The position numbers are program-made. Positions 36,001 through 39,000 of a DNA stretch of 64,000 nt are shown piece by piece. The stretch comes from Myxococcota bacterium (GTDB taxonomy: Bacteria > Myxococcota_A > Bradymonadia > UBA7976 > UBA1532), in NCBI GenBank assembly GCA_036337435.1, contig JAYZEG010000010.1:52493-116492 (forward strand). Reading direction: 5' to 3'. Within the stretch, counting starts at the first letter, position 1. Each line of letters starts with the position of its first letter.

Positions 36001-39000
36001 GTGATCATAGCTCCACCAACACCGCCTGCACCGCCTGCACCGCCTGCACCACCTCCAGCACCTGCACCGCCTGCACCGCCTTCAGCACCTGCGCCGCCTG
36101 CACCGCCTTCAGCACCTGCGCCGCCTGCACCGCCTTCAGCCCCTGCGCCGCCTGCGCCGCCTTCGGCACCTGCGCCGCCTCCACCACCTGCACCACCTGC
36201 ACCACCTGCACCGCCTGTGCCGCCTGTGCCGATCTCTGAACACTCGGCGTTCCACCGACACGCGCCAGTCGAATCTTCGACGCACTCAACGGATGGCCCA
36301 GAGCCGTCTGGACAGCTCGCAAAGTCAGGCATTTCGCCACAGTCCTCGGGCTGGCAAGTAGACGCGGCACCATCCTGATCGCCGCCCGAACCGGCTGCGC
36401 CGTCGATTTCAGAACCGATGGGGCCTCCATCGCCGGAGTCGCTGTCCGCACTATTGTCTTCGATGCACCCCACCATGGCCACGCTTAAAATGATTGTGAA
36501 AGCCAATGGTCCAAATCTTAAATACTTCACTGGTCTAAGCCTCCTGAGCGCTGGTATTGCTGTCTTCACGGCCACTTCGTATCCGTCCAAGCTATCCACC
36601 GCCAAATCTGAATGACTCGCAGAGCGACGCACCCGTGTCCCTCCATACACCGTGAGTCTACAGGATGAGTGCGGACCGTCGCTAATTAAATCATCATATT
36701 GAATCGACTTGACGAAGAATCATGGGCCGACGAATCAACGCCTCGATAAAGTTTGCTCGGCTCGAAGCCGAGGTGCCGTCTGGTCGCGCACATCAAAAGC
36801 CACACAAAACCTGCCAAACGGTGATGACTTCTGAGGTTTACCTTTTGGAGTCTGTTGGGCAGTAGACGTCGAGAAGAGCGGAAACAAAGGCATAAAAACG
36901 ATCTTCCCAGAGCCAGCATTCGATTGCATCGAAAATGGAGATAAACACAAATCCTAATCGATGAACTCAAAAGTCGGAATAACAATGCCTGTGGTGATCT
37001 GATTGAAGGGTAGATAAAAGGTGAGCTGCCCATCTGCGTATGTGTAGTTAAAGTTGACCTGACCAGAGTCTGGGCAATCGACAACGATAGGCATAGAGAC
37101 TGTGTCAGCTGCGAGTTCTCCGAGTTCGCCTGCGAGGCTAAACCCGACCGCCTGAGTGGCACCACCACCACCCTCGAAGACGGCATTAATGGTGCCGGAG
37201 ACGTCGACAGCGAATCGTCCCGAATCGGTAATCTCCATAACGCCATAGGCGGTCAACTGGGTTTGCTCAAGGTCTAGAATGGCAAGACCGATATCGGCTG
37301 AATCGAAGGCCAATATATAATCAACCAGGCGCCAGCGTCCGGTCGGAAACTCGCCCCCCTGTGCCTCTGGTGGGCTTCTATCCGTCGGTGTACCAATGAC
37401 TTCGATGGCCGCGTCGACGACATCGGTCGGTGCACATTGGCCAACGTCGTAGCCTGTCAAAGGCTCACTTTGATTGCATCGCCGCTCGGCCGGTGGTGGT
37501 GTGACAAACAGAAAATTGTAACACATTTCATCTTGCGTGTAGGGTCCAAACTTGCGGCTTTCAGCAAAGGTATTTTCGAATACGCATTCAGTAACGACTT
37601 TGTCTCCAGGCTCAAGTTGTAGCCCTTGTCCGTCGTAGAAAAGCTGGCTATCAAAGTCCCAGCCCGTAAGAGTAATGAGGTCTTCCTCGGTGCCATCAGC
37701 TCGTTGAATTGTCGACTTAAGACTGATCCCCAACTCGTGCATATGGGGTAAGGTTGCAATGATAGTCATAGGCTCAGTGACATGACACTGTCCCCCTACA
37801 GCCGTCCTGGTCAGTGGCGGTAGACTAAATCCCTCGGGTCCAATGGTCAGCATATCGATGGTTGGCCCGTCGGGGGGTGAATGAAAGATTCTCACACCGC
37901 TCTGATCGGCCACATCATCATAGCCGGCGGTATTGTTGTAATGAATTTCCAGGAGGTACCGCCGACTAGAGTCCGTCACCAAGCCGCCATCGACAAATTG
38001 AACAGGTTGTTGGCCCGGTGCCCAAGCGTAGATCGCAGCACTGAGATTGGTGCCGCAGTCTGTCTCCAGGCCATCACCGGGGCCCTCGGGCACCTCGTAT
38101 AAAACGATATGGTGAATGACGCGAGTATCATCAATCACTGGTTCAATCCGGCGAATGTAGCGTTCTCCGCCGGCCGGACCACTGAAAGAAAAGCATGTGT
38201 ATTGATCGCGGACGGCTGCTGGGATGTGTCCGTTATCTGCGCGAAATTCCATCAAGGCAGCCTCATCGAGAGGGTCGTCTGCCGGCTCGAAGATGGGTCG
38301 AGAAACATCGAATCCACCCGGATTCGGACCGGGCATTGGTCTCCCCGTATTATCACCACATGTCGCCCAGTCTAAGACGGCCAATGCCTCATCGGATGGC
38401 ACGTTTGGTTGGCCAGCGGGCGGCATGTCGCCGGCCCTCATGCGTTCGACCAATTTGTCGATGGGACGAGACCCGATATCTCCGTCCATCAAGCTGTCAT
38501 AGTCGAACAAACTGTATGGAGCACCGAAAGCAGGTGTATTGCCGTGACAGAGGCCACAGTACGTCTCGATGGTAGGCTTCACAGCCGTCCACTCCGACAC
38601 GTCGGGCACACAGGTCGGCGCGACCATCGCGGAATCCATTGGCTCTCCAATGGAACCGTCAGTGGTGGCCGCCATAGATGAGACATGCGGCGTACTCTGG
38701 CAACCGGCAAAGACGGACATGACGAGAGCTAGCAAGGTCAATAACAACGCGCAATGTTTCACGAAATACTCCCTTTCGATTTCGGACCAGCGTCGCACGG
38801 CGGTGCCGTAAAAATCGCACATAATTCCATTAGCCATTTGAGAGCCCCAGTTCACAGGCTAGTGAATGGTATCGATGATGTAAAAATTGAATCGGCGTTT
38901 CGCAGACCAAGAGACTCGTCGGAGGCTACCAAGAACCATGCTCATGCCATCGAGGGATCGAGTCAAAACTCACAAGGAAAGACAGACAAAAGCCGTGCAT

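What a model noticed while it worked through the whole genome (the two positions that open the first line are those of the whole stretch)
36954..38837. Bacterial homologue of animal dopamine beta-hydroxylase / peptidylglycine monooxygenase with all six copper ligands kept [...]
g00528 (C10:89446-91329, minus, 627 aa) is a lipoprotein-like fusion. Its N-terminal part is a mono-haem c-type cytochrome domain (C-G-L-C-H at aa 94-98, axial Met in M-P-P at 138). The rest holds both domains of the type II copper monooxygenases known from animal dopamine beta-hydroxylase (DBH), peptidylglycine monooxygenase (PHM) and tyramine beta-monooxygenase. All six copper ligands align with human DBH: H242, H243 and H299 of the electron-transfer copper, and H365, H367 and M438 of the oxygen-binding copper. 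I propose that the haem domain feeds electrons to the copper site in place of the ascorbate used by the animal enzymes. The family is concentrated in this phylum.
Evidence so far: Pfam Cu2_monooxygen + Cu2_monoox_C at the gathering cut. The best Swiss-Prot hit is zebrafish DBH-like monooxygenase 2. The only PDB hit is human DBH 4ZEL (E 6.6e-09; aa 189-455 on 169-465), with the VHH, HY, HxH and EMC motifs in register. The N-terminal 190 aa hit Cytochrome_CBB3 (mono-haem cyt c) at E 0.0041 and 17.9 bits; that is below the cut-off of 27 but covers profile positions 4-67 of 68 around the CxxCH. Of 96 homologues (E at most 1e-20, library of 5.8 billion proteins, call 172), all 58 of at least 570 aa have CxxCH within the first 200 aa. 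In an alignment of 45 of them, C94, C97, H98, M138-P-P and all six copper ligands are invariant (45/45). Three of the 96 carry a precomputed [...]
(Added by a program. Inside this text positions count along the whole contig: contig position 52,493 is position 1 of the stretch shown here. "Call 12" and the like, gene names such as g00115 and contig names such as C1 are that model's own, and its searches are not shown. The text may have been shortened before it was handed on; [...] marks where a part breaks off. The agent that wrote the report below was given it as the finding of a first reader that could run no searches.)

Follow-up and report, generated by a model that had tools for sequence, protein, structure and literature searches.

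The report
Haem-wired bacterial DBH/PHM-type copper monooxygenase
This gene encodes a membrane-anchored bacterial relative of the animal copper enzymes that make noradrenaline and amidated peptide hormones, permanently fused to a small haem protein that probably supplies its electrons, and no member of this large family appears to have been studied.

Summary
Window 36954-38837 (-) is an intact 627-aa ORF; the real start is probably the GTG at 38762. It has four parts. (1) A lipoprotein signal with the lipobox Cys at C46. (2) A mono-haem class I cytochrome c domain: C94-G-L-C-H98 and M138-P-P. (3) The two-domain copper core of dopamine beta-hydroxylase (DBH) and peptidylglycine monooxygenase (PHM), with all six ligands in register: H242, H243, H299; H365, H367, M438.

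A family profile hits DBH at 6.2e-41 and PHM at 7.6e-37. The AF2 model (pLDDT 89) superposes on DBH at Z 28.4 and on PHM at Z 26.8. In 256 relatives each haem and copper ligand is kept in at least 98% of the sequences that cover it. The haem-copper fusion also persists in distant relatives that carry extra YceI or redoxin domains.

That the haem feeds the copper site in place of ascorbate is a reasonable inference, not a demonstrated fact. The substrate is unknown. PHM's peptide-binding residues are not kept, and no gene neighbour is conserved. Eight literature searches found no paper on such a protein. I rate it a new variant of a known kind, with moderately high interest.

The parts
36954..38837 (-). 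ORF as annotated, 627 aa plus stop at 36954-36956. The probable real coding region is 36954-38762, 602 aa.
38769..38774 (-). Shine-Dalgarno-like AGGGAG, six bases before the GTG at 38762.
   Evidence: Read directly. Reverse complement checked.
38700..38762 (-). Lipoprotein signal peptide (V/M)KHCALLLTLLALVMSVFAG|C, aa 26-46. C46 is the lipid-modified Cys.
   Evidence: translation. C46 is an invariant column in alignments A2 and A5. A loose lipobox pattern is present in 158 of 202 relatives that have enough N-terminus. No signal-peptide predictor was available.
38622..38699 (-). Low-confidence tether, aa 47-72, between the lipid anchor and the first folded domain.
   Evidence: pLDDT below 50 for aa 47-61 in the model. 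Poorly conserved.
38343..38621 (-). Mono-haem class I cytochrome c domain, aa 73-165. Haem attachment C94-G-L-C-H98 at 38544-38558. Axial M138-P-P at 38418-38426. C76 and C160 bracket the domain and are invariant in A5.
   Evidence: Four helices in the model with CxxCH at the end of the first.
37878..38276 (-). Copper domain 1 (CuH, electron-transfer copper), aa 188-320. Ligands H242-H243 (38109-38114) and H299 (37941-37943).
   Evidence: PF01082 above cut-off. Aligned to DBH and PHM. Fold match. Conservation.
37455..37877 (-). Copper domain 2 (CuM, oxygen-binding copper), aa 321-461. Ligands H365-M-H367 (37737-37745) and M438 (37524-37526) in the motif D-E-M-C.
   Evidence: PF03712 above cut-off. 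Aligned to DBH and PHM. Fold match. Conservation.
36957..37454 (-). C-terminal up-and-down beta-barrel, aa 462-627, lipocalin-like. C468 and C588 are invariant and probably form a disulfide. Present only in the closer relatives of about 600 aa.
   Evidence: Domain model pLDDT 94.8. Best solved match is lipocalin-family 4gzv_A: Z 7.9, rmsd 4.7, 100 aligned. The list is dominated by lipocalin-like barrels. Atlas structure hits to Lipocalin_4/5 clusters at TM 0.45-0.55. Invariant Cys pair.

Best explanation
The gene encodes an exported, lipid-anchored, self-sufficient copper monooxygenase of the DBH/PHM type.

Proposed mechanism:
1. The protein is exported by Sec and acylated at C46.
2. The cytochrome c maturation system attaches haem to C94/C97, with H98 and M138 as axial ligands. 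Copper is loaded outside the cytoplasm.
3. The haem domain takes single electrons from a periplasmic carrier or the respiratory chain.
4. It passes them to the electron-transfer copper CuH (H242, H243, H299).
5. CuH reduces the oxygen-binding copper CuM (H365, H367, M438).
6. CuM activates O2 and hydroxylates a C-H bond of a bound substrate.

In this scheme the fused haem does the job that ascorbate, regenerated through cytochrome b561, does for the animal enzymes. The C-terminal lipocalin-like barrel probably binds or presents a hydrophobic ligand.

Shown: the domain make-up, homology, fold and ligand conservation. Inferred: haem and copper occupancy, the direction of electron flow, the oxygenase chemistry and any statement about the substrate.
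For: 1. Membership of the DBH/PHM family.
- Both Pfam domains are above the gathering cut-off.
- The family profile hits DBH at 6.2e-41 and 13 PHM sequence entries at 7.6e-37 to 3e-34.
- The AF2 model (pLDDT 89.3, pTM 0.75) gives Foldseek ranks 1-31 all DBH or PHM.
- VIA: Z 28.4, rmsd 2.4, 280 aligned to 4zel_A; Z 26.8, rmsd 2.4, 264 aligned to 6ala_A. The next family, PNGase F, is at Z 9.1.

2. Ligands. In 256 relatives aligned to the family HMM, counting only sequences that cover each column:
- H242 233/235, H243 234/235, H299 245/245
- H365 247/249, H367 249/250, M438 248/249
- C94 213/214, C97 214/214, H98 214/214, M138 223/226

3. Cytochrome domain.
- The domain profile hits class I cytochromes c: 59 of the 60 rows shown. 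Examples: c555 9.8e-06, QcrC 5e-05, CcoP 5.2e-05, c6 4.4e-04. MPP falls on the MP of QcrC.
- 34 of 43 relatives hit PF13442 at E <= 0.1.

4. The fusion is old and maintained. CxxCH...MPx sits a fixed distance before HH even in relatives of 18-26% identity. Some of these carry extra YceI or redoxin domains, or 2-4 haem motifs.

5. Export and cofactor supply.
- The lipobox Cys is conserved.
- Thirteen Cys are invariant in A5. Five of them (C215, C261, C351, C418, C439) lie on Cys of both DBH and PHM.
- The genome has three PF01578 cytochrome c assembly genes above cut-off, one in a 728-aa frame.

6. Docking. The cytochrome domain was docked on the copper core with haem riding along. Verdict: weak support. 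Score 0.50, best of 3 controls 0.00. The mark was reached by 116 of 157 solved complexes and 2 of 215 mismatched pairs, but at 0.60 or under by only 18 of the 157 and by both mismatches that passed. The runs agree in at least 89% of contacts and the partner's pLDDT is at least 78.

7. No conserved neighbour gene in 80 loci, as expected for an enzyme that carries its own electron entry module.
Against: - No coordinates were available, so the haem-to-CuH distance in the model could not be measured. The docking result is weak and no interface was reported.
- This protein's own cytochrome Pfam score is below the cut-off: 15.3 against 27.
- The N-terminal domain was not folded and searched on its own.
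- Nothing shows the direction of electron flow, the redox potentials, metal occupancy or activity.
- A haem-less paralogue family exists in the same genome and phylum. A fused haem is therefore not a general requirement of bacterial members.
- The substrate is unknown.
- The lipocalin match (Z 7.9) is in the range the tool calls middling.
- The set was collected with a query that contains the cytochrome domain. This favours haem-bearing relatives.
Confidence: 0.62

Rival explanations
1. Electrons run the other way. The copper core oxidises a substrate, and the haem hands the electrons on to the respiratory chain. The protein would then be a cytochrome-linked dehydrogenase or oxidase, like other enzymes that carry a cytochrome as a built-in mediator.
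For: Fused cytochrome domains serve as electron outlets in several oxidoreductases (established knowledge; the review PMC6472588 was seen only as a listing and abstract). Nothing here fixes the direction of flow. The docking result says only that the domains may touch.
Against: The full CuH/CuM ligand set, including the Met ligand of the oxygen-binding copper, is kept in at least 98% of relatives. In the characterised family this site consumes two external electrons per turnover (established knowledge of PHM and DBH, recalled). No dehydrogenase cofactor domain is present.
Confidence: 0.1
2. The protein is not a substrate hydroxylase. It would be a periplasmic redox or copper-handling protein, for example a cytochrome c-dependent reductase of O2, peroxide or superoxide, or a copper store or sensor that only reuses the PHM scaffold.
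For: No conserved neighbour or pathway context in 80 loci. Many paralogues per genome. Relatives are fused to redoxin/AhpC-TSA domains, which often deal with peroxide or thiol redox. PHM's substrate-binding residues are not kept (residue roles recalled).
Against: The two-copper architecture with a conserved interdomain cleft is kept at high structural similarity to active enzymes. A ligand-binding type of barrel (lipocalin-like here, YceI in distant relatives) is attached. This fits a small-molecule substrate better than O2 or peroxide alone.
Confidence: 0.15
3. It is a peptide- or protein-modifying enzyme like PHM. It would hydroxylate a C-terminal glycine or another residue of exported peptides, lipoproteins or prey proteins.
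For: PHM is one of the two closest solved relatives. The protein is exported. Its neighbours are secreted or lipoprotein-like proteins.
Against: In the profile alignment, PHM's R240, N316 and Y318 (roles recalled) correspond to L363, Y440 and F442 here. No precursor peptide, protease or lyase (PAL-like) gene is conserved nearby.
Confidence: 0.08

Closest known systems
Human dopamine beta-hydroxylase (PDB 4ZEL) and DBH-like monooxygenases
   Same: - Same two-domain copper core: Z 28.4, rmsd 2.4, 280 aligned; profile E 6.2e-41.
- HH...H and HxH...M ligands, and five Cys positions, in register.
- An extra redox-type domain sits N-terminal to the core.
   Different: - DBH has an N-terminal DOMON domain and a C-terminal dimerisation domain. 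Here the N-terminal module is a class I cytochrome c and the C-terminal module is a lipocalin-like barrel.
- No DOMON hit at E <= 1.
- About 21-23% identity.
- Lipoprotein anchor.
- The electron source is presumably haem rather than ascorbate (inference).
- Substrate unknown.
Peptidylglycine alpha-hydroxylating monooxygenase (PHM, e.g. 1PHM, 1SDW, 6ALA)
   Same: - Same core fold: Z 26.8 to 6ala_A, 20.7-25.3 to the others; profile E 7.6e-37.
- All six ligands kept, and the E-M-C motif.
   Different: - PHM's peptide-carboxylate binding residues (R240, N316, Y318; recalled) are L363, Y440 and F442 here.
- No PAL partner.
- Fused haem and barrel domains.
Enzymes with a built-in cytochrome domain that wires a catalytic centre, e.g. 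cytochrome c-fused copper nitrite reductases, or cellobiose dehydrogenase whose cytochrome reduces copper LPMOs
   Same: A one-electron haem carrier is linked covalently or functionally to a mononuclear copper centre that needs external electrons (analogy from established knowledge).
   Different: Unrelated folds and chemistry. None of them has a PHM/DBH core. These are recalled analogies and were not tested here.
Cytochrome b561 / ascorbate system of secretory vesicles
   Same: A haem protein is the upstream route by which electrons reach DBH and PHM in animals (recalled).
   Different: In animals it is a separate membrane b-type cytochrome acting through soluble ascorbate. Here it is a covalently fused c-type cytochrome, with no ascorbate expected.

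Membership tests
Copper type II monooxygenases (DBH/PHM/TBM; Pfam PF01082 + PF03712) | Both Pfam domains at or above the gathering score | tested here: met
   41.4 bits (cut-off 30) and 39.8 bits (cut-off 23). Of 43 relatives, 42 match each domain.
Copper type II monooxygenases (DBH/PHM/TBM; Pfam PF01082 + PF03712) | Two-domain beta-sandwich catalytic core | tested here: met
   Model pLDDT 89.3. Z 28.4 to DBH and 26.8 to PHM; the next family is at Z 9.1. Foldseek E 8.7e-17.
Copper type II monooxygenases (DBH/PHM/TBM; Pfam PF01082 + PF03712) | CuH ligands: HH plus a third His | tested here: met
   H242, H243 and H299 align with the HH and HY motifs of DBH and PHM. Kept in 233/235, 234/235 and 245/245 relatives. 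Which residues are ligands in DBH and PHM is recalled.
Copper type II monooxygenases (DBH/PHM/TBM; Pfam PF01082 + PF03712) | CuM ligands: HxH plus Met | tested here: met
   H365, H367 and M438 align with the HTH and EMC motifs of DBH and PHM. Kept in 247/249, 249/250 and 248/249 relatives.
Copper type II monooxygenases (DBH/PHM/TBM; Pfam PF01082 + PF03712) | Conserved disulfide cysteines of the core | tested here: met
   C215, C261, C351, C418 and C439 fall on Cys of DBH and PHM in the profile alignment and are invariant in A5. The pairing itself was not tested.
Copper type II monooxygenases (DBH/PHM/TBM; Pfam PF01082 + PF03712) | Ascorbate-dependent, O2-dependent hydroxylation | not testable with these tools
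   Needs enzyme assays. I infer that ascorbate is not the donor.
PHM proper (peptidylglycine hydroxylase) | Residues that hold the peptide C-terminal carboxylate (R240, N316, Y318; recalled) | tested here: not met
   The corresponding positions are L363, Y440 and F442 (alignment).
DBH proper | N-terminal DOMON domain | tested here: not met
   No DOMON family among the Pfam hits at E <= 1. The N-terminal domain is helical and cytochrome c-like.
Class I c-type cytochrome | CxxCH haem attachment motif | tested here: met
   C94-G-L-C-H98. Kept in 213/214, 214/214 and 214/214 relatives.
Class I c-type cytochrome | Distal Met ligand about 40 residues after the motif | tested here: met
   M138-P-P is kept in 223/226 relatives. 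In the profile alignment MPP lies on the MP of the QcrC cytochrome. That this Met ligates iron is an inference.
Class I c-type cytochrome | Significant sequence match to cytochrome c families | tested here: inconclusive
   This protein scores 15.3 bits against a cut-off of 27 for PF13442. The domain profile hits PDB cytochromes c down to 9.8e-06, in 59 of the 60 rows shown. Of 43 relatives, 34 hit PF13442 at E <= 0.1, the best at 1.3e-06.
Class I c-type cytochrome | Cytochrome c fold of the domain | tested here: inconclusive
   The model has four helices with CxxCH at the end of the first.
Class I c-type cytochrome | Export and a haem-attachment system in the genome | tested here: met
   Signal peptide. 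Three PF01578 matches above cut-off in the same genome.
Bacterial lipoprotein | Signal peptide ending in a lipobox with an invariant Cys | tested here: met
   ...LVMSVFAG|C46. C46 is an invariant column. Position -3 is Phe, which is not the commonest residue there. Judged by eye, with no predictor.
Lipocalin-like / calycin beta-barrel (C-terminal domain) | Eight-stranded up-and-down barrel similar to solved lipocalins | tested here: inconclusive
   Best Z 7.9 to 4gzv_A, and most of the top 50 are lipocalin-like barrels. Atlas TM 0.45-0.55 to Lipocalin_4/5 clusters. Z under 8 is middling by the tool's own note. No Pfam lipocalin hit at E <= 1.

The most novel reading that the evidence does not exclude
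This is a large, unstudied bacterial class of 'haem-wired' DBH/PHM-type monooxygenases. They draw electrons straight from the respiratory chain through a fused cytochrome c. They may hydroxylate membrane-associated hydrophobic molecules (isoprenoid lipids, quinones or similar), which would be handed over by an attached lipocalin-like barrel here and by a YceI barrel in distant relatives. If so, the two-copper mechanism of the animal neurotransmitter and peptide-hormone enzymes would have an ascorbate-independent bacterial counterpart. That counterpart would also be a tractable model for the unresolved question of how electrons pass between the two copper sites.
Probability: 0.2. Interest if true: 0.85.

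Novelty: new variant of a known kind. Interest (0 to 1): 0.62.

Why it matters
DBH and PHM are medically important copper enzymes. Two features of their mechanism are still debated (established background, recalled): long-range electron transfer between two separated copper sites, and the route by which the reductant enters.

A bacterial relative with a covalently attached one-electron donor would let electron entry be triggered and followed optically through the haem. It could also be made in bacteria and studied without ascorbate.

The family is large. There are 3,810 cluster representatives at E <= 1e-3 and 1,234 at E <= 1e-10. In the phylum sample, 168 of 401 genomes have a match. The sources name its members only 'hypothetical', 'cytochrome c family' or by domain. 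So it also marks a gap in what is known of periplasmic oxidative chemistry in Myxococcota and related bacteria.

It also bears on where the animal enzymes came from. No phylogeny with animal sequences was made here.

Tried and rejected
- Operon context. In 12 loci with up to 8 kb of flank and 80 loci with 3 kb of flank, no neighbour family recurs apart from the gene itself in other reading frames. The largest real neighbour cluster was a Ser/Thr kinase-like ORF in 9 of 80 loci. A thrombospondin type-3 repeat protein lies directly downstream only in the window and the two closest loci (L028, L029). It lies within about 6 kb in two further loci (L031, L033). This is a repeat family that cross-matches easily. 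The stop-to-stop ORF calling is crude in G+C-rich loci, so weakly conserved small neighbours could have been missed.
- NCBIfam: no family at E <= 1.
- Promoter and terminator scan around the gene: no more sites than in shuffles.
- Atlas feature search of the C-terminal part: one unnamed cluster at 0.77, below the level that counts as a lead.
- The search for related loci with the 43-sequence alignment failed because the alignment was too diverse. I repeated it with a closer 23-sequence alignment.
- Cluster look-up of ten distant relatives gave almost no names. The one exception was a JGI label 'mono/diheme cytochrome c family protein' on a 600-aa member.
- Literature. Eight searches found no paper on a bacterial DBH/PHM homologue or a cytochrome c fusion. 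Only listings and abstract starts were seen and no paper was opened. Subscription-only papers are outside the library.
- I considered that the copper domains might be degenerate. Rejected, because every ligand is kept.
- I considered that the CxxCH might be a chance motif. Rejected because of its invariance, its fixed spacing to MPP and HH, and the profile hits to cytochromes.
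Full report
THE OBSERVATION

Window 36954-38837 on the minus strand is an open frame of 627 codons. Pfam finds both halves of the copper type II monooxygenase core above the curated cut-offs. Cu2_monooxygen scores 41.4 bits against 30 (aa 197-304). Cu2_monoox_C scores 39.8 bits against 23 (aa 336-458). There is also a sub-threshold cytochrome c match: PF13442, 15.3 bits against 27, aa 84-157, covering profile positions 4-67 of 68. The only significant solved relative by single-sequence search is human DBH 4ZEL, at E 6.6e-09, with VHH, HY, HxH and EMC in register. NCBIfam has nothing.

There are 96 homologues at E <= 1e-20, 58 of them are at least 570 aa, and all 58 have CxxCH in the first 200 residues. 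Three carry a precomputed PF13442.

START AND EXPORT

The annotated ATG gives 25 residues before a typical signal peptide. A GTG at 38762 is preceded by AGGGAG at 38769-38774, with six bases between. It yields MKHCALLLTLLALVMSVFAG|C. The Cys (C46) is an invariant column in the 150- and 23-sequence alignments. A loose lipobox pattern is present in 158 of 202 relatives with enough N-terminus. I therefore read the protein as a lipoprotein of 602 residues before processing.

After the Cys come about 25 poorly conserved residues that the model does not fold (pLDDT below 50 for aa 47-61). This is probably a tether.

Thirteen Cys are invariant among the closer relatives. Five of them lie on Cys of DBH and PHM in the profile alignment. 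This fits an oxidising, extracytoplasmic location.

THE COPPER CORE

A profile built from 150 relatives hits DBH at 6.2e-41 and the PHM entries at 7.6e-37 to 3e-34. The AlphaFold2 model made with that alignment has mean pLDDT 89.3 and pTM 0.75.

Foldseek ranks 1-31 are all DBH or PHM, and 94 matches have E <= 1e-3. The second-look aligner gives Z 28.4 (rmsd 2.4, 280 residues) to DBH 4zel_A and Z 26.8 (rmsd 2.4, 264 residues) to PHM 6ala_A. Other PHM entries score Z 20.7-25.3. The next family, PNGase F, which shares the general fold, drops to Z 9.1.

H242, H243 and H299, and H365, H367 and M438, fall on the HH, H, HxH and M positions of both animal enzymes. That these positions are the CuH and CuM ligands is textbook knowledge that I recall. 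No call stated it.

I aligned all 256 collected relatives to the family HMM and counted only sequences that cover each column:
- H242 233/235, H243 234/235, H299 245/245
- H365 247/249, H367 249/250, M438 248/249

Six sequences deviate at one or more of the ten sites, and they are listed in that call.

By contrast, the three PHM residues that I recall as holding the peptide's C-terminal carboxylate (R240, N316, Y318) correspond to L363, Y440 and F442. There is no DOMON domain. The protein is a member of the superfamily. It is an orthologue of neither PHM nor DBH.

THE CYTOCHROME DOMAIN

C94-G-L-C-H98 and M138-P-P are kept in 213/214, 214/214, 214/214 (C, C, H) and 223/226 (M) relatives.

A profile of this domain alone (34 sequences, 19-81% identical to the window's) matched 126 PDB sequences at E <= 10. 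Of the 60 shown, 59 are c-type cytochromes or cytochrome domains; the exception is a chemosensory protein at E 0.14. The best are c555 at 9.8e-06, the QcrC subunit of bc1 at 5e-05, CcoP at 5.2e-05 and cytochrome c6 at 4.4e-04. In the QcrC alignment the profile's MPP lies on that protein's MP.

Scanned one by one, 34 of 43 relatives hit PF13442 at E <= 0.1 (best 1.3e-06). A few hit PSCyt1, Cytochrom_C, Haem_bd or PccH.

In the model the region forms four helices, with CxxCH at the end of the first. I did not fold this domain alone.

The genome (4.38 Mb, 95 contigs, 87% complete) has three PF01578 cytochrome c assembly matches above the cut-off, one in a 728-residue frame. Haem attachment is therefore possible. 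I accept the domain as a mono-haem class I cytochrome c. The reservation is that this protein's own Pfam score is below threshold.

THE C-TERMINAL DOMAIN (NEW)

Folded alone with 30 relatives, they give a very confident model (pLDDT 94.8) of long antiparallel strands.

Against 48,161 PDB representatives the best match is a Bacteroides lipocalin-family protein: 4gzv_A, Z 7.9, rmsd 4.7, 100 aligned. The top 50 are mostly lipocalins, nitrobindins, VtrC and ToxS, and other up-and-down barrels. The Atlas structure search gives Lipocalin_4 and Lipocalin_5 clusters at TM 0.45-0.55.

By the tool's own note, Z under 8 may mean only a common arrangement. I therefore call the domain 'lipocalin-like' as a description and not as a family assignment.

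C468 and C588 are invariant. The domain occurs only in the closer relatives of about 600 aa. Many relatives end after the copper core at about 440-500 aa.

THE FAMILY

The exhaustive search finds 3,810 cluster representatives at E <= 1e-3, 1,234 at E <= 1e-10 and 184 at E <= 1e-30. Most of the best 150 alignments start at query residue 30-90, so they include the cytochrome domain.

The architectures seen are:
- cytochrome c plus copper core;
- the same plus the barrel, as in this protein;
- YceI plus cytochrome c plus core, about 740 aa;
- redoxin/AhpC-TSA plus cytochrome c plus core, 660-800 aa, labelled Pirellulaceae or Pirellulales;
- forms with two to four CxxCH motifs.

In a sample of the window's phylum, 168 of 401 genomes (124 of 254 genera) have a match at E <= 1e-10, often several per genome. 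A scan of one genome per species found 294 confirmed loci for the closer subfamily. The best 80 are all metagenome-assembled genomes. Their labels are Myxococcales, Bradymonadia, Polyangiales, Sandaracinaceae, Myxococcota, Deltaproteobacteria or just 'bacterium', plus two labelled Enterobacteriaceae. I did not sample other phyla, so 'concentrated in this phylum' is only partly tested.

The window's own genome has two more relatives. One is a 580-residue lipoprotein with CVGCH...MPPW and all copper motifs (contig 8). The other is a 375-residue lipoprotein with the copper motifs but no CxxCH (contig 95). The haem-less form belongs to a well-conserved family of about 320 residues: 298 hits, and 54-71% identity among the 120 listed apart from one near-identical hit.

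CONTEXT

The gene is flanked by about 260 bp upstream and about 300 bp downstream. Its neighbours are a DUF7790 protein and a thrombospondin type-3 repeat protein. No neighbour is conserved beyond the closest relatives. The gene looks monocistronic and gives no pathway clue.

MECHANISM

The characterised enzymes need two electrons per turnover, delivered one at a time to the two coppers. Ascorbate supplies them in animals (recalled). This protein sits outside the cytoplasm of a bacterium, where ascorbate is not expected. It carries a one-electron haem carrier fused directly upstream of the CuH domain, and that fusion is kept across very deep divergence.

I tested whether the two parts are predicted to dock, with haem riding along. 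The verdict was weak support. The score was 0.50 against a best control of 0.00. The mark was reached by 116 of 157 solved complexes and 2 of 215 mismatches. At 0.60 or under, only 18 of the 157 reached it, as did both mismatches that passed. The runs agree in at least 89% of contacts and the partner's pLDDT is at least 78. No interface was reported. This adds little.

Model coordinates could not be read, so no haem-copper distance is available. The direction of electron flow, the redox potentials, metal occupancy and chemistry are all inferred.

Two different ligand-binding types of barrel are attached to this core in different branches: lipocalin-like here and YceI in distant relatives. Together with the hydrophobic residues at PHM's carboxylate-binding positions, this hints at a hydrophobic, non-peptide substrate. 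It is a lead, not a finding.

NOVELTY

Databases already label bacterial proteins with these Pfam domains, so the existence of bacterial homologues is not new.

Three things appear not to be in print:
- the constant cytochrome c fusion;
- its breadth;
- the barrel domain.

This is as far as eight full-text searches of the held library show. Only listings and abstract starts were read. No member seems to have been characterised. I classify the protein as a new variant of a known kind. Interest is moderately high, because it offers a tractable, ascorbate-independent model of a much-studied mechanism and points to unknown periplasmic oxidative chemistry.

Noticed in passing
L002:790-1917 (+) = own genome contig 95, 39113-39496 region: A second DBH/PHM-type protein in the same genome. 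It is a 375-aa lipoprotein with HH, H, HTH and DEMC motifs but no CxxCH. Its family of about 320 aa is unusually well conserved: 298 hits, and 54-71% identity among the 120 listed apart from one near-identical hit. The labels are Myxococcales or Myxococcota. What reduces it is unknown.
   Followed up: partly
L003:772-2514 (-) = own genome contig 8: A third paralogue, a 580-aa lipoprotein with CVGCH...MPPW plus all copper motifs. A long Cys-rich insertion lies between the HxH and the Met motif. It resembles the distant branch (P0098-P0119).
   Followed up: partly
proteins P0101, P0105, P0106, P0112, P0119; P0107, P0115, P0116; P0179, P0233, P0240: Distant relatives add further modules in front of the cytochrome and copper core. 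Five add a YceI-like barrel, three add redoxin/AhpC-TSA domains (two labelled Pirellulaceae/Pirellulales), and three have two to four CxxCH motifs.
   Followed up: partly
window 33984-36650 (-): An 888-aa lipoprotein-like protein with a Gly/Ala-rich tract, eight thrombospondin type-3 repeats (PF02412, 142.5 bits) and a Cys-rich C-terminus. It lies directly downstream of the gene here and in the two closest loci (L028, L029).
   Followed up: partly
window 39021-40073 (-): The upstream neighbour is a 350-aa protein that matches DUF7790 (PF25046, 243 bits). Function unknown.
   Followed up: no
window 32075-33799 (-): A 574-aa lipoprotein with a long (G-A-G-G-V/A-G) tract and a weak RET cysteine-rich domain match (30.7 bits). 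The region holds many secreted or lipoprotein-like genes with Cys-rich parts.
   Followed up: no
model md1c13c22a926 against PDB: The model's copper core fits best (rmsd 2.4) to 4zel_A and 6ala_A, and less well (rmsd 3.0-4.8) to the other PHM entries. From memory, those two are the 'closed' conformers with the coppers close together. If so, the model is in a closed state. Not verified here.
   Followed up: no
L039:6733-7851 (-), a complete genome of the same class: In one relative, a lipoprotein with an HExxH motif overlaps the 3' end of the homologue by 4 bases, and a small lipoprotein lies just upstream. This arrangement is not seen in the other loci.
   Followed up: no
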